From positions 126,001 through 190,000 of the forward strand of contig MFIU01000001.1 of assembly GCA_001778985.1 (NCBI GenBank): DNA of 64,000 bases, in the 5' to 3' direction. The position numbers and the translations under genes are program-made. Below the pieces are notes generated by a model. It saw only the letters and a list, made by a program, of their open reading frames with translations, was not told the DNA's origin and ran no database searches. Positions 6,626-60,041 of the stretch are shown here, piece after piece (position 1 is the first letter of the stretch; every line of letters starts with the position of its first letter). This stretch comes from Candidatus Giovannonibacteria bacterium RIFOXYD1_FULL_48_21 (GTDB lineage Bacteria > Patescibacteriota > Minisyncoccia > JACPKW01 > UBA11713).

Positions 6626-6697
6626 GTCCCCATAGCTTAACGGATAAAGTACAGCCCTCCGAAGGCTGGGATCGAGGTTCAATTCCTCGTGGGGACG
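6626..6697 (+). tRNA. tRNA-Arg (anticodon CCG)
   Basis: manual cloverleaf: acceptor GTCCCCA/TGGGGAC, D-stem GCTT/AAGT, anticodon stem CAGCC/GGCTG with loop CTCCGAA, T-arm CGAGG-TTCAATT-CCTCG; 72 nt. Confidence 0.7.
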
Positions 6698-6698
6698 C

Positions 6699-6769
6699 CG
6701 GGCTGTAGTATAGCGGTAGTACACAAGGCTGGGGGTCTTGTAGCCGGGGTCCGACTCCCCGCAGCCCGA
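6699..6769 (+). tRNA. tRNA-Pro (anticodon GGG)
   Basis: acceptor CGGGCTG/CAGCCCG, anticodon stem CAAGG/TCTTG with loop CTGGGGG (G37), T-arm CGGGG-TCCGACT-CCCCG; begins 1 nt after tRNA-Arg. Confidence 0.65.
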
Positions 6770-6781
6770 CACTTCGACTTT

Positions 6782-48889: not shown

Positions 48890-49777
48890 TTGAAAGGGAA
48901 ACGCAATAAACCTGATGTCCAAGAATTTTCGATACGGCTCATGGATAATATTCTAGCACTTTACCAAGAACTTGCCTCTAAAACTTACGAGCACGGCGGC
49001 TATAAATCCTTTCACATCTTTGACCCCAAGCCGAGGCATATCCACAAAGCCAGTGTTCGCGATAGATTATTACACCATGCCATTTACCGGAAGCTCTATA
49101 CGTTCTTTGACAGAACTTTCATTACCGATTCATTTTCCTGCCGCAAGAACAGAGGAACACATAAGGCACTAAACGGGTTTAAAGCGTTTGGGCAAAAAGT
49201 AAGTCGAAACAACACCAAAATCTGCTGGGTTTTGAAAGGCGACATCCGAAAGTTCTTTCAGAACATTGACCATGAAGTTTTAATGAATACTTTATCGCAG
49301 CATATCCCTGATAAAAATATTCTCTGGCTTCTAAAAAAAGTTATTGAGAGTTTTTCTCCCGGTCTACCCCTCGGCAACCTAACTTCCCAGCTTTTCGTTA
49401 ATATCTATATGAACGAATTTGACCAATTTGTGAAACATAAATTGAAAGTAAAATATTATATTCGCTACGCGGACGACTTCGTGATTTTGTCGGAAGATAA
49501 AAGCGAACTCCATAATCTAATTCCAAAAATCAGAGATTTTTTTCAAGACACCCTGCGTCTCGAACTCCATCCCGACAAAGTTTTTATCAAAACTCTTGCT
49601 TCCGGCGTTGACTTTTTGGGCTGGGTTCATTTTCCGGACAATAGGGTATTGCGAACGGCGACCAAAAGGCGGATGATTAAAAGGATACAAGATAATCTAA
49701 ATCCCCAGACCTTGAATTCATACCTCGGTTTTCTGAAACACGGAAATACATATAAACTTCGGAAAGAAATTTACTGA
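48890..49777 (+). CDS. DGR-type reverse transcriptase
   Basis: YADD box (IRYADDFVIL) and the DGR-specific PLGNLTSQ motif; conserved N-terminal residues (FEDIISVENLLAAWKEF) lie in frame upstream of the called TTG start, back to ~48800. Confidence 0.8.
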   Translation: MKGKRNKPDVQEFSIRLMDNILALYQELASKTYEHGGYKSFHIFDPKPRHIHKASVRDRLLHHAIYRKLYTFFDRTFITDSFSCRKNRGTHKALNGFKAFGQKVSRNNTKICWVLKGDIRKFFQNIDHEVLMNTLSQHIPDKNILWLLKKVIESFSPGLPLGNLTSQLFVNIYMNEFDQFVKHKLKVKYYIRYADDFVILSEDKSELHNLIPKIRDFFQDTLRLELHPDKVFIKTLASGVDFLGWVHFPDNRVLRTATKRRMIKRIQDNLNPQTLNSYLGFLKHGNTYKLRKEIY

Positions 49778-52975: not shown

Positions 52976-53006
52976 ATAGTTTAATTATAGAGTAATTGAA
53001 TTTTGT

Positions 53007-53276
53007 TGTGGAGATGGCGGGAATTGAACCCGCGTCAGAAGAAATTTTGAACCGCGGTTGACAGGCTTAAAACTTTTGAAGGTTTTTCTCGCTTATAACA
53101 CCCGCGACCCTCTAGCGAGAATCAAGGACGGATGCTTACACAGACTTAATTAAGCAACTGCGTAAGAAGGTTGGAATAAGTTTGCACTTACTACATTGAG
53201 AGATTTTTAAGAGCTAACTCTCGTCCTCTGCCTGAGCGCCTGCTCAAACTTTTCCTCCTCGAGGCCGATCATCCCC
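53007..53276 (-). ncRNA. ssrA: tmRNA (ssrA), about 270 nt
   Basis: 5' GGGGATG pairs with 3' CATCTCC-A (G3:U wobble), T-arm GCGGG-TTCAATT-CCCGC, tag reading frame GCA AAC TTA TTC CAA CCT TCT TAC GCA GTT GCT TAA (ANLFQPSYAVA*) at 53150-53185. Confidence 0.65.
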
Positions 53277-54264: not shown

Positions 54265-55776
54265 ATGCTTCGTGAAATTATTAGAGGAGAACTCGCCAAA
54301 ATAATAAATGACGACTTGGAGATTAAAATCTCCGAGCCGGAGCGGTCGGAGAATGGCGACTATTCAACCAACGTCGCCTTTTTGCTGGCGAAGAAAGAGG
54401 GGAGGAAACTACAGGAGGTGGCGAAGGAGCTCGCCCTTCGATTGAGCTCAGGGCAATTCGCAGAGCGAGTTGCTGCCAAAAATGGATTCGTGAACATCTT
54501 TTTAAAAGACGAGGTTTTGCTAAAAGCGCTCGGAGAAAAAGAAAAATTTCCCAAGAAAAAAGAGAAAATCAATGTTGAATTTGTCTCGGCAAATCCCACC
54601 GGGCCTTTGACCATGGCCAACGGCCGCGGCGGGTTTTACGGCGATGTTTTATCTAATGTTTTAAAAAAAACCGGCTACGACGTTACGCGCGAATACTATA
54701 TTAATGACGCTGGGAATCAAATAAAGCTTTTAGGCGAGTCCATTCAGGCGGCCGAAGGAAAAATTCCGGAGAAAGAGGAGTATTACAAGGGTGAGTATAT
54801 AAAAAAACTCAAAGGAAAGAGCGCTGCGGAGGCCGCGTCGATTCTGTTGAAAGAAATAAAAAATTCGCTCAAGAAAGCAGGCATAAAATTTGATGTTTGG
54901 TTTTCGGAAGAAAAAAATCTGCGAAAAACCGGCGAATTAAAAAAAGTCCTCGAACTTTTAAATAAAGAAGGAGTGATTAAAGAGGGCGCGGGCGCCCTGT
55001 GGCTTGATGATAACGTTTTGGTTAAGTCAAACCAGGAGTTCACGTATTTTTTGTCGGATTTGGCGTATCACTACGATAAATTTATAAAAAGAAAATTCGA
55101 CGTCGCGATAGATATTTGGGGGGCTGACCATCACGGATATGTCGCACGGATGAAAAGGGGAACGGTGATGCTGGGCGTGAATCCAGAATGCCTTAAAATA
55201 ATTATTATGCAGTTGGTGCGTTTGACGAGAGACGGCAAAGAGGTGCGGATGGGGAAAAGAACAGGCGAATTCGTAACTATGGATGAGCTTTTGGACGAAG
55301 TTGGGCTTGATGCCGCGCGGTGGTTTTTTCTTTCGCATGCGCCCGAGACCCACATGGATTTTGACTTGGATTTGGCAAAAGAGCGGAGCGAGAAAAATCC
55401 GGTCTATTATGTGCAATACGCTCACACAAGAATGCAGAGCATTCTGCGTAAATCAGAAATCCGAAATCAGAAATCCGAAATAAAATCATTTGAACATCCA
55501 GCAGAGAGAGCTTTGGTTATGAAAGTTCTTCGCTGTCCCGAAATTCTGGAAGATATTTCCAAAGATTACCAAGTGCACCGCCTTACAACTTACGCCTACG
55601 AGCTTGCGCAGACGTTCTCCGCGTTTTATAGAGATGTGAAAGTTATTGGCCCGCCTAGACTCGGCGAGGCTGGCTCTGAGCGCGAAGCGGAACTTTTGTA
55701 TCTGGTTTCCAAAGCTAAAGAAACTTTAGCGGATTTGCTCAAATTAATGGGCATTTCTCAACCCGAGGAGATGTAG
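54265..55776 (+). CDS. argS: arginine--tRNA ligase
   Basis: class-I core plus DALR anticodon-binding domain, C-terminal ...EEM. Confidence 0.85.
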   Translation: MLREIIRGELAKIINDDLEIKISEPERSENGDYSTNVAFLLAKKEGRKLQEVAKELALRLSSGQFAERVAAKNGFVNIFLKDEVLLKALGEKEKFPKKKEKINVEFVSANPTGPLTMANGRGGFYGDVLSNVLKKTGYDVTREYYINDAGNQIKLLGESIQAAEGKIPEKEEYYKGEYIKKLKGKSAAEAASILLKEIKNSLKKAGIKFDVWFSEEKNLRKTGELKKVLELLNKEGVIKEGAGALWLDDNVLVKSNQEFTYFLSDLAYHYDKFIKRKFDVAIDIWGADHHGYVARMKRGTVMLGVNPECLKIIIMQLVRLTRDGKEVRMGKRTGEFVTMDELLDEVGLDAARWFFLSHAPETHMDFDLDLAKERSEKNPVYYVQYAHTRMQSILRKSEIRNQKSEIKSFEHPAERALVMKVLRCPEILEDISKDYQVHRLTTYAYELAQTFSAFYRDVKVIGPPRLGEAGSEREAELLYLVSKAKETLADLLKLMGISQPEEM

Positions 55777-56585: not shown

Positions 56586-59500
56586 ATGGCCGATGAGAAA
56601 GGTCACCCTATATACGATTCCGTGTCTCCTCGGGCCGAAGAGGAGATTCTTTCATTTTGGAAGGAAAACGGGATTTTTAAGAAGAGTGTAGCCCTTCGAC
56701 AAGCTCAGGGCAAAAAAGACAAAAGTAAGACGTTTGTCTTTTTTGAAGGGCCGCCATATGCTAACGGTTTGCCCGGGATTCATCACGTTGAATCGCGCTC
56801 TTTTAAAGATATAATTTTGCGCTATAAGACCATGCAAGGTTTTTACGTTCCTCGCAAGGCCGGCTGGGACACGCACGGGCTTCCCACGGAAATGGCCGTG
56901 GAAAAAGAACTAGGCATCAATTCCAAGCGCGAGATTGAAGAAAAAATCGGCGTAGAAAAATTCATCCAGGCCGCGAAGAAAAATGTTTTCTTTTATAAAG
57001 AAGCTTGGGAAAAACTGACCGAGCGGATGGCCTACTGGCTGGATTTGGCCAATGCCTACGTCACGATGACGAACGATTACATTGAATCTTTGTGGCAGGT
57101 CGTTTCGCAGATTTCCCAAAAAGGGCTTTTGTACGAAGATTATCGAATTTTACCTTGGTGTTCTCGTTGCGGCACTTCGCTTTCATCCCATGAACTTGCG
57201 CTCGGGTATAAATTCGTGAAAGAGGAGTCGATTTACGTAAAATTCCCGCTGAAGCAAAAGCCGGGAGTAAAACAACTTTCAAGTTTTCTCGTCTGGACAA
57301 CAACCCCGTGGACTTTGCCGGGCAATGTCGCCTTGGCCGTCAATCCCAAAGCGGATTATGTCACTGTGGAGACGGAGACTTCTCCGGGCGAGTGGCTGAT
57401 TTTGGCGGAGGAGAGGTTGGGCGTCCTCGCCGGAAAATATAAAATAATAAACCGCGAGAAAGGAAAAAATCTGGTCGGGACGGCGTACGAAAGTTTGTAC
57501 AGGGATGAGCCGGGGAAGGTGGTCGCGGCGGATTTTGTTTTGACTGAAGACGGCACGGGCATTGTGCACATCGCGCCTGCTTTCGGGGCTGAAGACTTGG
57601 AAGTCGGCAAAAAACACAGTCTTCCGATATTCATGACGGCTGGAGAGGACGGGAAAATGGTGTCGCCCGGCAAGCCGTGGGACGGGAAATTCGTAAAAAC
57701 GGCCGACCCCCTGATAGTCGCGGACTTGAAAGAACGCGGACTTTTGTATAAAACCGAATTTTACGAGCACGACTACCCGTTTTGCTGGAGATGCGAAACG
57801 CCCTTAATGTATTACGCTAAAAACTCGTGGTTTTTCAAAACCACGGCCGTCAAAGACAAAATGCTTTCGGAGAATTCTAAAATCGACTGGCATCCGGGTT
57901 ATTTGAAAGATGGGCGTTTCGGCGAGTGGCTCAAGGAAAACGTGGACTGGTCCATTTCTCGCGAGCGCTATTGGGGAACTCCTTTGCCGGTGTGGAGATG
58001 CGAAACCCGCCTGCCGGACGGGCAGGAATGTAAGAAGGTAAAAGTCATCGGTTCGCTTAAGGAACTGGACGAGTTGGACCCCCATCCGACTGAGCTTATA
58101 GTGATGCGCCACGGCGAAACCTCGATTAACGTCAAAAAATCTCTCTATGCTCTTTCGCCTGATGATGACAGAAAAATCCATATCACGGGGAAAGGGAGAG
58201 ATGACGTGTTGAAAGCCGCAAGAGAGCTTAAGAAAGAGAAGATTGACGTCATTGTTGCTTCGCCAGCGACCAGGACAAAAGAAACAGCCGAAATTTTAGC
58301 GCGAGAGCTGGGCCTCTCTGACTTTGAAACCATTCCGGAATTTTACGACATTCTTATAGGCGCCGCTTTTGAAGGGAAGCAAGAAGAAGAATTTAATAAA
58401 GAATTTGAAATCTGGGAAGAGAGATTTTGGAAGAAGCCAGAGGGGTCGGAGAACTGGCGGGAGCTTCGAAGGCGCGTTATGGCGGGAGTGAAGAAGCTTT
58501 GCGAGAAATACCGAGGCAAGAAAATTTTGCTGGTGGGGCACGGCGACCCTTTGTGGGTTATGCTGGCGGCGCTGGAGGGACTGGCGGAGAAGGATTACAA
58601 AAAAATACCGTATCCCCAGACAGGAACATTCAGAAAAATCCGGCTTCATAACTGGCCTTACAATGCCGAAGGCGAACTGGATTTGCACAAACCCTATGTT
58701 GATTCCATAAAATTTCGCTGTGATTGCGGGAGCGAGATGGGGCGCGTTAAAGAAGTGATTGATGTCTGGTTTGATTCGGGCGCGATGCCTTTTGCCGCGC
58801 AGGGTTTTGGAAGTCCGACTTCCAAGGGGAAGTCGGACTTCCTCTATCCCGCCGATTATATTTCGGAGGCGATTGACCAAACCCGCGGCTGGTTTTACAC
58901 GCTTTTGGCGGTCTCGTCTTTATTGGGTTTGGAATCTTCCTATAAACGCGTTCTCTCGCTGGGGCTCGTCTTGGATGAGAAGGGAGAGAAGATGTCCAAG
59001 TCCAAAGGAAACGTGGTGGACCCGGTTAAACTCATTGAAAAATACGGGGCGGACGCGGTCCGGTGGTATTTTTATACCGTAAATCAGCCTTGGGACGACA
59101 AGCTTTTCCGAGAGAGAGACATTCAGGATGCCAGACGCAGATTTTTGATGATTTTGTGGAATTCATTCGTCTACTGGCAAACTTACAAAGAAGTCCAACT
59201 TCCAATTGGAAGTTGGACTTCCAAGCCGAAACTAATCATAAACAAATGGATTCTTGCGAAATGGAACGTGATTTTGAAGGAAGTTACCGAAAAACTTGAA
59301 AAATATGATATTGTTTCCGCGGCGCGAATTTTAGAAAATTTCGTGGTGGAAGATATCTCGCACTGGTATATCCGCCGAATCCGGAAATATATGAAGTCTG
59401 AAGATAAAGAGTGTTCTCGAGTGTTGGGCAATATTCTTTTGGAGCTTTCCAAATCGCTCGCGCCTTTCGCGCCGTTTATAGCGGAGGGGATTTATAAAGG

Positions 59501-60041
59501 TACTGACGGCAAAAAGGAGAGCGTGCATTTGGAAGATTGGCCGGAAGCTAAAAAACTAAAAGCTGGAGGCTATAAACTGATTAAAGATATGGAAAAAGTG
59601 CGGGAGATTGTTTCCAAAGCGCTCGAACTTCGACAGAAAGCCGGAATAAAAATCCGACAGCCCCTGCAAAAATTACAAATCACAGACAAATTACCAGCAG
59701 AGTTTCTGGAGTTAGTTAAAGGAGAGGTGAACGTGAAAGAAATTGCTTTTAGCGATAAATTTGAACTGGACACGAAACTTACCGAAGATTTGAAAGAAGA
59801 AGGACTTGTTCGTGAATTCATCCGCCAAGTGCAGGATTTCCGAAAAGAACTCAAGCTGAAACCGCAGGAGAAAGTGGAGCTCTCCGCCTCGGGCGAAAAA
59901 TCTCTTGAAAAAATTCTACAAAAACACGAGAAACTTATTAAAAAAGAAATAGCACTTTCGGAATTTGAAATCGGAAAAGGAAAAGGCCGCAAAAAAGAGC
60001 TTAAATTAGGTGACTCTGTGGTTGAAGTCTACATCTCTTAA
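56586..60041 (+). CDS. ileS: isoleucine--tRNA ligase carrying an inserted histidine-phosphatase domain
   Basis: PGIHH (HIGH), GWDTHGLP, CP1 editing domain, KMSKS; 1151 aa. Confidence 0.9.
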   Translation: MADEKGHPIYDSVSPRAEEEILSFWKENGIFKKSVALRQAQGKKDKSKTFVFFEGPPYANGLPGIHHVESRSFKDIILRYKTMQGFYVPRKAGWDTHGLPTEMAVEKELGINSKREIEEKIGVEKFIQAAKKNVFFYKEAWEKLTERMAYWLDLANAYVTMTNDYIESLWQVVSQISQKGLLYEDYRILPWCSRCGTSLSSHELALGYKFVKEESIYVKFPLKQKPGVKQLSSFLVWTTTPWTLPGNVALAVNPKADYVTVETETSPGEWLILAEERLGVLAGKYKIINREKGKNLVGTAYESLYRDEPGKVVAADFVLTEDGTGIVHIAPAFGAEDLEVGKKHSLPIFMTAGEDGKMVSPGKPWDGKFVKTADPLIVADLKERGLLYKTEFYEHDYPFCWRCETPLMYYAKNSWFFKTTAVKDKMLSENSKIDWHPGYLKDGRFGEWLKENVDWSISRERYWGTPLPVWRCETRLPDGQECKKVKVIGSLKELDELDPHPTELIVMRHGETSINVKKSLYALSPDDDRKIHITGKGRDDVLKAARELKKEKIDVIVASPATRTKETAEILARELGLSDFETIPEFYDILIGAAFEGKQEEEFNKEFEIWEERFWKKPEGSENWRELRRRVMAGVKKLCEKYRGKKILLVGHGDPLWVMLAALEGLAEKDYKKIPYPQTGTFRKIRLHNWPYNAEGELDLHKPYVDSIKFRCDCGSEMGRVKEVIDVWFDSGAMPFAAQGFGSPTSKGKSDFLYPADYISEAIDQTRGWFYTLLAVSSLLGLESSYKRVLSLGLVLDEKGEKMSKSKGNVVDPVKLIEKYGADAVRWYFYTVNQPWDDKLFRERDIQDARRRFLMILWNSFVYWQTYKEVQLPIGSWTSKPKLIINKWILAKWNVILKEVTEKLEKYDIVSAARILENFVVEDISHWYIRRIRKYMKSEDKECSRVLGNILLELSKSLAPFAPFIAEGIYKGTDGKKESVHLEDWPEAKKLKAGGYKLIKDMEKVREIVSKALELRQKAGIKIRQPLQKLQITDKLPAEFLELVKGEVNVKEIAFSDKFELDTKLTEDLKEEGLVREFIRQVQDFRKELKLKPQEKVELSASGEKSLEKILQKHEKLIKKEIALSEFEIGKGKGRKKELKLGDSVVEVYIS
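58085..58675 (+). other. histidine phosphatase (phosphoglycerate-mutase family) domain inserted inside ileS (approximate bounds)
   Basis: LIVMRHGETS (RHG catalytic motif) ... ILLVGHGDPLWV (second catalytic His); about 195 aa between the IleRS zinc-knuckle region and DLHKPYVD. Confidence 0.6.
58809..58842. repeat. in-frame palindromic insertion in ileS (copy 1)
   Basis: GGAAGTCCGACTTCC-AAGG-GGAAGTCGGACTTCC. Confidence 0.55.
59190..59221. repeat. in-frame palindromic insertion in ileS (copy 2)
   Basis: GAAGTCCAACTTCCAA / TTGGAAGTTGGACTTC, a perfect 16+16 palindrome related to copy 1. Confidence 0.55.

What the first reader, a model, noticed from the sequence alone, without database searches (positions are those of the whole stretch)
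56586..60041. IleRS carrying an inserted histidine-phosphatase (PGM-family) domain
Between the zinc-knuckle region (PVWRCE...) and the conserved DLHKPYVD...CDCG...DVWFDSG stretch, about 195 aa with RHGE(T/S) and LLVGHGDP motifs are inserted. These are the two catalytic-His signatures of the phosphoglycerate-mutase/histidine-phosphatase superfamily. No intein hallmarks are present (no N-terminal Cys/Ser, no C-terminal HN), so it would be a permanent domain insertion in an essential aaRS. I am not aware of such a fusion being described. Possible roles are tRNA or aminoacyl-adenylate-related phosphatase activity or a moonlighting function.
Basis: partly seen in the sequence, partly recalled or inferred. 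Interest (0 to 1): 0.7.

Follow-up and report, generated by a model that had tools for sequence, protein, structure and literature searches.

The report
Isoleucyl-tRNA synthetase with built-in phosphatase
An essential protein-synthesis enzyme (isoleucyl-tRNA synthetase) of a tiny uncultured Patescibacteria bacterium carries a complete, apparently active phosphatase enzyme spliced into its middle, and this pairing, fused or as neighbouring genes, recurs in hundreds of related species without having been described.

Summary
ORF 56586-60041 encodes a 1151-aa type-2 IleRS. About 200 aa (residues 495-697) are inserted in the loop of a 4-Cys zinc knuckle of the connective-peptide region. The insert is a histidine phosphatase, branch 1 (PF00300, E=6e-32; AF2 pLDDT 92; nearest folds PhoE and metal-independent phosphoserine phosphatases).

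It is not a chimera or an intein. 119 of the 120 best homologue clusters share the architecture, and at least 360 GTDB species genomes encode the domain (76 of the 80 loci inspected have it in-frame in IleRS). Its codon usage matches the host gene. The catalytic residues R508, H509, R563, D/E588 and H652 are invariant, while the domain as a whole diverges faster than the IleRS core.

New here: the same phosphatase clade also occurs in other arrangements.
- A free-standing gene next to ileS (35 of 39 assessable loci).
- Tandem 2x or 4x inserts.
- A second IleRS insertion site.
- A C-terminal fusion to ArgRS.
- Rarely, a fusion to Sua5/TsaC.

One nested orthologue has lost the insert cleanly.

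Best reading: a bifunctional polypeptide, made of a normal editing-competent GXHH-type IleRS plus an autonomous small-molecule phosphomonoesterase captured from the neighbouring gene. The substrate is unknown. No paper describing this was found. It is a new variant of a known kind; interest about 0.6.

The parts
56586..60041 (+). ileS ORF, 1151 aa plus stop: type-2 isoleucyl-tRNA synthetase with an inserted phosphatase
   Evidence: ORF; TIGR00392 ileS equivalog, 846 bits vs cut-off 621.4; the AF2 model superposes on PmIleRS2 with TM 0.83-0.84 and on T. thermophilus IleRS with TM 0.91, both normalised by target
56775..56786 (+). Class I signature motif in the swapped form G64-I-H-H67 (GXHH instead of HXGH)
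   Evidence: The same swap is engineered in PDB 8c8w and is described as conferring mupirocin hyper-resistance in IleRS2 (PMC10485003)
57294..57596 (+). CP1 editing-domain motifs (WTTTPWTLPGN at aa 237-247; GTGIVHIAPAFGAED at aa 323-337), intact
   Evidence: T238-T240, H328 and D337 are invariant in 109 aligned relatives
57999..58031 (+). First half of the 4-Cys zinc knuckle (C472 ... C482), with a lineage-specific 7-aa extra loop TRLPDGQ (aa 474-480)
   Evidence: both Cys are 121/121 invariant; the loop is absent in 110-117 of 121; these align with T. thermophilus IleRS C461/C464
58068..58676 (+). Inserted segment, aa 495-697: histidine phosphatase (branch 1) domain plus its two linkers
   Evidence: boundaries; domain-only AF2 model, pLDDT 92.4, pTM 0.90; Foldseek: PhoE 1H2E at E=1e-13, PspA 4IJ5/4IJ6 at TM 0.82
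58107..58115 (+). R508-H509-G510: phosphate-binding Arg and the nucleophilic His of the phosphatase
   Evidence: R and H 120/120, G 118/120; kept in all fused, tandem, site-B and free-standing copies
58272..58274 (+). R563, the second phosphate-binding Arg (S559-P-x-x-R-x-x-x-T567 motif)
   Evidence: 120/120
58347..58349 (+). D588, the acidic residue aligned with the 'LRE' Glu of PhoE (its proton donor Glu83, assigned from my own knowledge)
   Evidence: alignment to PhoE; D 70 / E 50 of 120, always acidic
58539..58556 (+). H652-G-D-P-L-W657: the second catalytic His within a clade-typical HGDPLW motif
   Evidence: H 120/120; D654 in 63/109 fused and 30/38 free-standing copies; PhoE has HGVVLK here
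58650..58664 (+). C-terminal linker N-W-P-Y-N (aa 689-693), with P691 nearly invariant
   Evidence: P691 118/121; pLDDT ~93-94 across aa 681-700
58719..58727 (+). Second half of the zinc knuckle (C712-D-C714)
   Evidence: 121/121; aligns with T. thermophilus C502/C504
58761..59003 (+). Second half of the catalytic (HUP/Rossmann) core, from DVWFDSG (aa 726-732) to KMSKS (aa 802-806)
   Evidence: KMSKS present in all relatives
59187..59231 (+). Surface loop (aa 868-882) equivalent to 'site B', where some relatives carry a second phosphatase copy; empty in this window
   Evidence: P0144 and P0164: a copy between the C-terminal core segment and Anticodon_1; pLDDT 66 here
59241..60035 (+). Anticodon-binding domain (Anticodon_1, aa 886-1029) and the type-2 C-terminal domain (DUF5915, aa 1061-1150)
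54265..55776 (+). argS (ArgRS), a conserved upstream neighbour of the phosphatase/ileS module in related genomes
   Evidence: (argS ... ileS-recO synteny; in relatives the order is argS, phosphatase, ileS)

Best explanation
The gene encodes a bifunctional polypeptide.

(1) The host is a complete, editing-competent type-2 IleRS that charges tRNA-Ile in the normal way. It has the GXHH signature motif, KMSKS, intact CP1 editing motifs and a type-2 C-terminus.

(2) A ~200-aa histidine phosphatase of the PhoE / metal-independent phosphoserine phosphatase / CobC size class protrudes from the loop of a 4-Cys zinc knuckle in the connective-peptide region. That knuckle lies about 30 residues upstream of the DVWFDSG strand of the catalytic core. 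The phosphatase would work by the standard mechanism of its superfamily: His509 attacks a terminal phosphoryl group to form a phospho-histidine intermediate; R508, R563 and H652 hold the phosphate; D588 acts as the general acid/base.

(3) The module behaves as an autonomous enzyme, not as a part of the aminoacylation machinery. It belongs to a Patescibacteria-specific phosphatase clade that is tied to the argS-ileS locus. The clade occurs as a free-standing gene abutting ileS, inserted at this site (one, two or four copies), inserted at a second IleRS site, or fused to the C-terminus of ArgRS. It can also be lost precisely. The insertion therefore most likely arose by capture of the neighbouring gene. 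It likely persists because it locks the phosphatase's expression and stoichiometry, and possibly its location, to the synthetase.

What is shown: the architecture, the boundaries, the fold, the conservation of catalytic residues, the distribution and the alternative arrangements. What is inferred: catalytic activity, a small-molecule phosphomonoester substrate, gene capture, and autonomy. The substrate itself is unknown.
For: - Architecture and boundaries.
- IleRS integrity: TIGR00392 at 846 bits vs 621; motifs; the model superposes on solved IleRS2 structures at TM 0.83-0.91.
- Phosphatase fold: AF2 pLDDT 92.4. The nearest solved structures are all ~200-aa small-molecule phosphomonoesterases: PhoE, PspA, E. 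histolytica PSP, GpgP, CobC and HFP.
- Selection for catalysis: R508, H509, R563, D/E588 and H652 are invariant in 120/120 clusters, while the insert averages 38% identity to the query against 61% for the IleRS core. The same holds in every tandem, site-B and free-standing copy.
- Distribution: 119/120 best clusters; 360 GTDB species genomes matched one peptide pattern, and 76 of the 80 loci inspected have the domain embedded in-frame.
- Autonomy and capture:
  - A free-standing 191-aa gene ends 1 nt before ileS in L029.
  - 35 of 39 assessable free-standing loci have ileS as the immediate neighbour.
  - Among the 150 best 50%-identity representatives, 95 are single fusions, 6 double, 1 quadruple, and two insertion sites are used.
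  - ArgRS C-terminal fusions exist.
  - Exactly one arrangement is found per locus in 159 of 160 loci.
  - The insert-free orthologue P0102 nests among insert-bearing IleRS and lies in the same synteny.
- Long residence: the insert's codon usage equals that of the host gene.
Against: - No biochemical data exist; activity and substrate are inferred from sequence alone.
- The domain fails the curated cut-offs of every characterised equivalog (dPGM, CobC, PspA, SixA, PRK07238), so substrate transfer by homology is not justified.
- Both linkers are modelled with high confidence and P691 is nearly invariant. This hints at a fixed docking on IleRS, which would fit a mechanistic coupling better than a passive tether.
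- The whole argS...ileS-recO-aaRS-M16 block is syntenic in this lineage. Conserved adjacency alone is therefore weak evidence either for functional coupling or for gene capture, and the direction (insertion versus fission) is not resolved by the crude NJ tree.
- A rare Sua5/TsaC fusion and the ArgRS fusion share with IleRS the ATP -> adenylate + PPi chemistry. This could mean the substrate is linked to that chemistry.
Confidence: 0.7

Rival explanations
1. The phosphatase is mechanistically coupled to adenylate-forming tRNA enzymes. It would clear a product common to IleRS, ArgRS and Sua5/TsaC (AMP or PPi), or heal a 2'/3'-phosphorylated tRNA 3' end so that tRNA-Ile can be charged. That would give the synthetase a third catalytic activity that serves aminoacylation.
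For: - All three host proteins found for this clade use ATP to make an acyl-adenylate plus PPi and act in tRNA biology.
- The Sua5 fusion lies among tRNA-modification genes: CCA-adding enzyme, TGT, Q-salvage and TruD.
- The association with ileS is maintained across IleRS lineages whose flanking segments are only ~35% identical.
- The linkers are confidently modelled.
- The best NCBIfam relative is the phosphatase half of an RNase H fusion.
Against: - Variable position (two IleRS sites, the ArgRS C-terminus, free-standing) and variable copy number (1, 2 or 4) argue against a fixed geometry relative to the active site or tRNA end.
- Precise loss in P0102 leaves a normal IleRS.
- All nearest structures act on small metabolites, none on RNA ends or PPi.
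- Sua5 in Patescibacteria fuses with many unrelated domains, so that fusion carries little weight.
- The ArgRS fusion is explained by adjacency.
Confidence: 0.2
2. The insert is a housekeeping metabolic enzyme that happens to be fused to IleRS. For example, it could be the cell's cofactor-dependent phosphoglycerate mutase or its phosphoserine phosphatase.
For: Structural neighbours include phosphoserine phosphatases and dPGMs. Weak NCBIfam hits to dPGM_arch, GpmB and PspA models are present.
Against: Scores are far below the curated cut-offs: pgm_1 23 vs 81.7; dPGM_arch 62.7 vs 225; PspA 45.9 vs 350; GpmB 43 vs 261. The domain is ~185 aa, shorter than the ~230-250-aa dPGM structures it matches, which it covers less completely (TM normalised by target about 0.6). 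The acidic HGD motif after the second His differs from PhoE's HGV.
Confidence: 0.06
3. The domain is a protein phosphatase that keeps IleRS (and ArgRS) unphosphorylated, for example as in-cis immunity against HipA-like kinase toxins that inactivate aminoacyl-tRNA synthetases.
For: From my own knowledge, branch 1 of the superfamily contains protein phosphatases (SixA, PGAM5, Sts-1). A weak SixA hit is present. Tethering to the putative target would make sense.
Against: The SixA score is below its cut-off (35 vs 74.5). The domain retains the cap region typical of small-molecule enzymes, and its nearest folds are metabolite phosphatases. No kinase gene is conserved nearby.
Confidence: 0.03
4. The insert is an artefact or a selfish element: an assembly chimera, an intein, or a decaying non-functional passenger.
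For: None beyond the unusual architecture. Read support could not be inspected.
Against: The architecture recurs in 119/120 clusters and hundreds of independent assemblies. It is in frame, and its codon usage is that of the host gene. There is no Hint/intein domain or junction residues. The catalytic residues are invariant at 27-48% overall domain identity.
Confidence: 0.01

Closest known systems
Type-2 (eukaryote-like) bacterial IleRS, e.g. Priestia megaterium IleRS2 (PDB 8C8U/8C8V; GXHH mutant 8C8W) and Thermus thermophilus IleRS (1ILE)
   Same: Best sequence and fold matches. Same domain order: HUP core split by CP1/editing and CP2, ARD domains, and a DUF5915 C-terminus. Same 4-Cys knuckle (T. 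thermophilus C461/C464/C502/C504). The GXHH signature is as in naturally hyper-resistant IleRS2.
   Different: The knuckle loop, about 11-13 residues in those enzymes, is replaced by a ~200-aa catalytic domain. No solved or described IleRS has this.
PhoE (YhfR) broad-specificity phosphatase of Geobacillus stearothermophilus (1EBB/1H2E), and the metal-independent phosphoserine phosphatase PspA (4IJ5)
   Same: Closest solved relatives of the insert by sequence (E=3e-12) and by fold (TM 0.77-0.82). Same RHG...R...E/D...H catalytic constellation and the same ~200-aa size with a small cap.
   Different: Only 22-25% identical. The insert has an HGDPLW motif where PhoE has HGVVLK. It is embedded in another enzyme. 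It fails the PspA equivalog cut-off.
NCBIfam NF040702 'isoleucine--tRNA ligase, N-acetyltransferase domain-containing' (ileS_w_GNAT)
   Same: A precedent for a bacterial IleRS carrying an extra catalytic domain inside the polypeptide.
   Different: A different domain (GNAT) at a different place: model positions ~272-494, within the CP1/editing region, are those not matched by ordinary IleRS. The window protein scores 304 vs a cut-off of 1999, so it is not a member.
Bifunctional RNase H / acid phosphatase (PRK07238; Rv2228c/SCO2299 type)
   Same: Best NCBIfam hit of the insert (78 bits). It is another case of a CobC-like histidine phosphatase fused to a nucleic-acid enzyme. From my own knowledge, the role of that phosphatase is also unclear.
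   Different: It is an end-to-end fusion, not an insertion. The score is far below the cut-off (326). The partner enzyme is different.
Domain insertions in class Ia synthetases (CP1 editing domain; LeuRS-specific insertions)
   Same: The same evolutionary principle: the Rossmann/HUP core tolerates whole domains inserted in connective peptides (PMC13114784).
   Different: Those insertions serve aminoacylation fidelity or tRNA binding and are universal in their families. This one is an unrelated hydrolase, is lineage-restricted, and is dispensable (P0102).

Membership tests
Isoleucyl-tRNA synthetase (TIGR00392 ileS equivalog) | Whole-protein score at or above the curated cut-off | tested here: met
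   846 bits vs 621.4, matched in two stretches around the insert
Isoleucyl-tRNA synthetase (TIGR00392 ileS equivalog) | Class I signature motifs HIGH and KMSKS | tested here: met
   KMSKS at aa 802-806. HIGH is present in the swapped GXHH form (G64-I-H-H67), a functional variant documented for IleRS2
Isoleucyl-tRNA synthetase (TIGR00392 ileS equivalog) | CP1 editing domain with the Thr-rich and GTGxVHxAPxxGxxD motifs | tested here: met
   WTTTPWTLPGN at 237-247 and GTGIVHIAPAFGAED at 323-337, invariant in relatives
Isoleucyl-tRNA synthetase (TIGR00392 ileS equivalog) | Aminoacylation of tRNA-Ile; being the only IleRS of the genome | not testable with these tools
   No second ileS in the 64-kb window. 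The whole genome is not available
Type-2 IleRS with GXHH motif (mupirocin hyper-resistant class, PMC10485003) | Type-2 C-terminal organisation (no treble-clef ZBD) and first/third positions of HXGH swapped | tested here: met
   DUF5915 C-terminus. The best PDB and NCBIfam relatives are IleRS2 and MupA/MupB. The motif is GIHH
Type-2 IleRS with GXHH motif (mupirocin hyper-resistant class, PMC10485003) | Millimolar Ki for mupirocin | not testable with these tools
   Needs enzymology
MupA / MupB acquired mupirocin-resistance IleRS (NF000257 / NF000258) | Score at or above the exception-model cut-off of 1900 | tested here: not met
   711 and 769 bits
Histidine phosphatase superfamily, branch 1 (PF00300) | Score above the Pfam gathering threshold | tested here: met
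   111 bits in context and 115 bits alone, vs 21.7
Histidine phosphatase superfamily, branch 1 (PF00300) | Catalytic core: RHG His nucleophile, two Arg, an acidic proton donor and a second His | tested here: met
   R508, H509, R563, D588 and H652; invariant (D/E at 588) in 120/120 clusters and in all copies elsewhere
Histidine phosphatase superfamily, branch 1 (PF00300) | The alpha/beta fold of the superfamily | tested here: met
   AF2 pLDDT 92.4; Foldseek probability 1.00 to PhoE, PspA, GpgP, CobC and dPGMs
Histidine phosphatase superfamily, branch 1 (PF00300) | Phosphatase activity through a phospho-histidine intermediate | not testable with these tools
   Needs biochemistry
Cofactor-dependent phosphoglycerate mutase (TIGR01258 pgm_1; NF038349 dPGM_arch) | Score at or above the curated cut-off | tested here: not met
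   23 vs 81.7 and 62.7 vs 225
Alpha-ribazole phosphatase CobC (TIGR03162) | Score at or above the curated cut-off | tested here: not met
   60.9 vs 162.9 for the insert; 78.9 for the free-standing L029 protein
Metal-independent phosphoserine phosphatase PspA (NF045917) | Score at or above the curated cut-off | tested here: not met
   45.9 vs 350, although the fold match is the best by TM-score
Phosphohistidine phosphatase SixA (TIGR00249) | Score at or above the curated cut-off | tested here: not met
   35.3 vs 74.5, covering the N-terminal half only
Intein | Hint domain; Cys/Ser/Thr at the first residue of the insert; His-Asn at its end followed by Cys/Ser/Thr | tested here: not met
   No Hint/intein family among the Pfam hits. 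The junctions read ...ELDELDPHPTE... and ...NAEGELDLHKP...
IleRS with GNAT domain (NF040702) | Score at or above 1999; GNAT domain inside IleRS | tested here: not met
   304 bits; no acetyltransferase family detected

The most novel reading that the evidence does not exclude
The phosphatase is a true third catalytic centre of the aminoacylation system. It would be a Patescibacteria-specific enzyme that acts on something IleRS (and ArgRS, TsaC) binds or releases: AMP or PPi, or a phosphorylated tRNA 3' end. Translation in these minimal cells would then depend on a synthetase-tethered phosphatase, a kind of coupling not known for any aminoacyl-tRNA synthetase.
Probability: 0.2. Interest if true: 0.85.

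Novelty: new variant of a known kind. Interest (0 to 1): 0.62.

Why it matters
- **A new bacterial aaRS architecture.** Bacterial aminoacyl-tRNA synthetases rarely carry unrelated catalytic domains. Here a second, apparently active enzyme sits inside the catalytic region of an essential class I synthetase, in a large radiation of uncultured bacteria (at least 360 species-level genomes). It had escaped description even in a 2026 survey of 96,219 IleRS sequences.
- **A concrete, testable partnership.** The association recurs as a neighbouring gene, at two insertion sites, as tandem arrays and as an ArgRS fusion. This links a dedicated phosphatase to the argS-ileS translation locus in organisms with minimal metabolism.
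- **A permissive insertion site.** The zinc-knuckle loop of IleRS tolerates a 200-aa (up to ~800-aa) insertion, which is useful for enzyme engineering.
- **An annotation problem.** NCBI's pipeline names most of these proteins only 'class I tRNA ligase family protein'. Metabolic reconstructions may also miscount the insert as a PGM-family enzyme.
- **A resistance-type motif.** The host enzyme carries the GXHH motif associated with mupirocin hyper-resistance.

Tried and rejected
- **Assembly chimera:** rejected.
- **Intein:** rejected.
- **Inactive or structural domain:** rejected, because the catalytic residues are invariant in every copy.
- **Membership in dPGM, CobC, PspA or SixA:** all below their curated cut-offs.
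- **The phosphatase compensates for the GXHH motif:** rejected. Insert-free P0102 also has GIHH, and three insert-bearing proteins have HMGH/HIGH.
- **A second ileS or phosphatase copy in the window:** none found.
- **A fused and a free-standing copy in the same locus:** never seen in 160 loci.
- **Peptide-nucleotide antibiotic (microcin C-type) detoxification:** the paper that mentions Parcubacteria concerns HIT hydrolases and gave no link. A histidine phosphatase also needs a terminal phosphoryl group (own reasoning).
- **Technical dead ends:**
  - The 24-sequence insert alignment was too diverse for the genome scan, so a 7-sequence subset was used.
  - The afdb50 fold library was unavailable.
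- **Not possible with these tools:**
  - The geometry of the phosphatase active site relative to the synthetic and editing sites or to tRNA could not be measured, because model coordinates are not exposed.
  - Whole-genome presence or absence of ppa, gpm and serB could not be assessed.

Full report
**Observation.** The window contains one long ORF at 56586..60041 (+) of 1151 aa. Pfam finds a class I synthetase catalytic domain split in two, an anticodon-binding domain and the type-2 IleRS C-terminal domain DUF5915. Between the two synthetase halves it finds His_Phos_1 (PF00300) at aa 504-680, with E=6.4e-32 and 111 bits against a gathering score of 21.7. The segment alone scores 115 bits. NCBIfam identifies the host as IleRS (TIGR00392, 846 bits, cut-off 621.4). 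MupA/MupB are the next best models, so this is a type-2 IleRS.

**Boundaries and site.**
- phmmer against PDB sequences aligns query 15-473 with P. megaterium IleRS2 11-460, and query 685-1103 with 474-898.
- A close orthologue without the insert (P0102, 940 aa) reads 'KCKEIKVVGSIDELGIKDEIDLHRPYID' across the site.
- A junction with aa 496-695 deleted in silico aligns end to end with T. thermophilus IleRS 446-528.

The extra segment is therefore aa ~495-697 (nt 58068-58676). It replaces an 11-13-residue loop between two Cys pairs: C472/C482 and C712/C714. These align with T. thermophilus C461/C464 and C502/C504 and are invariant in 121/121 relatives. From my own knowledge, these four Cys bind a structural zinc in the T. 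thermophilus enzyme. The P. megaterium papers place the region in the connective peptides (CP1/CP2) that separate the two halves of the HUP core, residues 40-168 and 513-632, and mention zinc ions in 'zinc fingers'. The site is about 30 residues upstream of the DVWFDSG strand of the catalytic core.

**Not an artefact, not an intein.**
- 119 of the 120 best 90%-identity clusters (48-100% identical, from NCBI, JGI, ENA and Logan assemblies) carry PF00300 together with the synthetase domains.
- The insert's GC, GC3 and codon usage are those of the host gene.
- No Hint domain or intein junction residues are present.

**The host is an intact IleRS.** KMSKS, the Thr-rich and GTGxVHxAPxxGxxD editing motifs and the anticodon-binding domains are all present and conserved. 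The HIGH motif is G64-I-H-H67. This swapped GXHH form is known from natural IleRS2 enzymes and confers mupirocin hyper-resistance with only mild catalytic cost (PMC10485003). The best PDB hit is in fact the engineered GXHH mutant 8C8W. An AlphaFold2 model built on 109 relatives has mean pLDDT 90.7 and pTM 0.84. It superposes on P. megaterium IleRS2 (TM 0.83-0.84 normalised by target) and on T. thermophilus IleRS (TM 0.91).

**The insert is a complete, conserved phosphatase.**
- A domain-only model has pLDDT 92.4 and pTM 0.90.
- Its nearest solved structures are PhoE (1H2E, E=1e-13), the metal-independent phosphoserine phosphatases (4IJ5/4IJ6, TM 0.82, rmsd 2.3 A), mycobacterial GpgP, CobC and a riboflavin-pathway HFP. 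All are ~200-aa small-molecule phosphomonoesterases.
- R508, H509, R563 and H652 are invariant in 120/120 clusters. The residue aligned with the 'LRE' Glu of PhoE is always D or E (70/50). E622 and R630 are nearly invariant.
- The insert as a whole is much less conserved than the IleRS core: 38% vs 61% mean identity to the query.

This is the signature of selection on catalysis. The domain does not reach the curated cut-off of any characterised equivalog (dPGM, CobC, PspA, SixA, PRK07238). It also has a clade-typical HGDPLW motif where PhoE has HGVVLK. It is therefore a distinct clade of unknown substrate.

**Distribution.** A scan of one genome per GTDB species with a single peptide pattern from the insert found 360 genomes encoding a relative. 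Of the 80 best loci, 76 have the domain in-frame between both IleRS flanks and 2 more are cut by contig ends. Record titles name Giovannonibacteria, Niyogibacteria, Nealsonbacteria, Harrisonbacteria, Ryanbacteria, Brennerbacteria, Colwellbacteria, Kaiserbacteria, Liptonbacteria, Spechtbacterales and Paceibacterota. These are Parcubacteria/Paceibacteria-type Patescibacteria. The list includes one complete 689-kb genome (CP179887.1). The window's closest named relatives are Giovannonibacteria.

**Other arrangements of the same phosphatase clade (new here).** In L029 and L081 the domain is a free-standing 191-193-aa gene immediately upstream of an insert-free ileS; in L029 the stop is 1 nt before the ileS start. 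argS lies upstream. The partner passes the ileS equivalog cut-off (739 bits).

An exhaustive search of 1.84 billion 50%-identity representatives with the insert found 371 proteins at E<=1e-10. The best 150 break down as follows:
- 95 IleRS with one copy;
- 6 IleRS with two copies;
- 1 IleRS with four copies;
- about 43 free-standing proteins of ~190 aa.

Two-copy forms are of two kinds. Some are tandem at the knuckle site (P0160, P0216, P0246). Others have one copy at the knuckle and one at a second site, between the catalytic core and the anticodon-binding domain (P0144, P0164). All copies keep the catalytic residues.

A metagenome scan seeded with free-standing members returned 39 fused and 41 free-standing loci. 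Of the 41 free-standing loci:
- 33 lie directly upstream of ileS on the same strand;
- L120 has two tandem copies followed by ileS;
- L159 has a convergent ileS 45 nt away;
- 2 have no room on the contig;
- 4 have other neighbours.

So 35 of 39 assessable loci have ileS as the immediate neighbour.

Two further hosts exist. One is ArgRS with the phosphatase at its C-terminus: 3 clusters, followed by a class Ia synthetase in L163, but by recO with ileS missing from the slot in L162. The other is Sua5/TsaC: 4 clusters, in a tRNA-modification neighbourhood. In 159 of 160 loci there is exactly one arrangement, never both a fused and a free copy. In a tree of the IleRS core, the insert-free P0102 nests eight nodes deep among insert-bearing proteins and sits in the same synteny. 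Its lack of the domain is therefore best read as a precise secondary loss.

**Interpretation.** Four facts argue that the phosphatase is an autonomous enzyme rather than a cog of the aminoacylation mechanism:
- it can be free-standing;
- it can be lost;
- its position and copy number vary;
- its structural neighbours are small-molecule phosphatases.

They also suggest that the insertion arose by capture of the neighbouring gene. What fusion provides is then fixed co-expression and stoichiometry with the synthetase, and possibly co-localisation or dimerisation. Dimerisation is speculative: from my own knowledge many enzymes of this superfamily are dimers or tetramers, and tandem 2x/4x copies could mimic that.

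Three points speak for something more specific:
- the association persists across IleRS lineages whose flanks are only ~35% identical;
- the linkers are confidently modelled and P691 is nearly invariant;
- all three hosts (IleRS, ArgRS, TsaC) make an acyl-adenylate and release PPi and AMP.

Two caveats weaken that case. The whole argS...ileS-recO-aaRS-M16 block is syntenic in this lineage, so adjacency by itself is weak evidence. And patescibacterial Sua5 fuses with many unrelated domains. I put about 0.7 on the autonomous bifunctional reading and about 0.2 on a phosphatase that serves aminoacylation directly (AMP/PPi clearance or tRNA-end healing). The remainder is spread over the dPGM/PSP, protein-phosphatase and artefact readings.

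**Comparison with the known, and novelty.** The host is an ordinary member of type-2 IleRS, and the insert is an ordinary member of histidine phosphatase branch 1. The combination is what is new. The nearest precedents are NCBIfam's IleRS with a GNAT domain (a different domain at a different site) and RNase H-acid phosphatase fusions. Six full-text searches found no description (plus checks inside the papers). The 2026 survey of 96,219 IleRS sequences mentions no phosphatase, CPR or Patescibacteria. The sequences themselves are public and carry precomputed Pfam hits, so the architecture is visible in databases but apparently unremarked. I classify it as a new variant of a known kind: an aaRS with an accessory catalytic domain. 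Interest is about 0.6. It is a clear, widespread and well-supported oddity in an essential enzyme, with a testable partnership, but its function is still unknown.

Noticed in passing
window 56775-56786: The IleRS HIGH signature is GIHH (GXHH), the swapped motif reported to give mupirocin hyper-resistance in type-2 IleRS. About 115 of 121 relatives share it, while three insert-bearing relatives have H(M/I)GH.
   Followed up: yes
window 58005-58025: A 7-aa extra loop (TRLPDGQ) lies between the first two zinc-knuckle cysteines. It is absent from 110-117 of 121 relatives, so it is a second, very recent small insertion in the same knuckle.
   Followed up: partly
window 53006-53276 (-): tmRNA gene (Rfam 110 bits) with tag peptide ANLFQPSYAVA. 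In related contigs smpB lies just upstream of argS (L162, L163).
   Followed up: no
window 6626-6770: tRNA-Arg(CCG) and tRNA-Pro(GGG) abut with a 0-1 nt spacer.
   Followed up: no
window 55739-55776: The 3' ends of argS (+) and of a convergent Asp/Glu racemase (murI-like, -) overlap by 38 nt. In relatives with a free-standing phosphatase, the slot between argS and ileS holds the phosphatase gene instead.
   Followed up: partly
window 48890-49777; L001 5987-7142: A ~290-aa RVT_1 reverse transcriptase is present in the window. A similar one, with a DUF5674 gene, sits between argS and ileS on the contig of the insert-free orthologue P0102. It could be a retroelement or a diversity-generating element.
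   Followed up: no
proteins P0273-P0386: Patescibacterial Sua5/TsaC is a fusion hub. Most relatives carry a C-terminal Ogt-like PF01035 domain. Others carry TruB, 2H/CPDase, NUDIX, GNAT, a DNA glycosylase or His_Phos_1.
   Followed up: partly
P0126; L120 4989-6180: Copy-number amplification of the phosphatase: four tandem copies inside one IleRS fragment (P0126), and two tandem free-standing genes in front of ileS (L120). All copies are catalytically intact.
   Followed up: partly
L162 6001-8795: In one lineage an ArgRS-phosphatase fusion is followed directly by recO. ileS is missing from its usual syntenic slot, so the phosphatase stayed at the locus when ileS left.
   Followed up: partly
one search hit table: NCBI's pipeline names most insert-bearing proteins only 'class I tRNA ligase family protein' rather than isoleucine--tRNA ligase. 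This may be a consequence of the insertion.
   Followed up: no
L043, L066, L072: Some GTDB MAGs carrying the fused gene are titled Gammaproteobacteria or Acutalibacteraceae, and many are titled 'Saccharibacteria'. These are probably record-title mislabels or bin contamination rather than spread outside Parcubacteria-type Patescibacteria.
   Followed up: no
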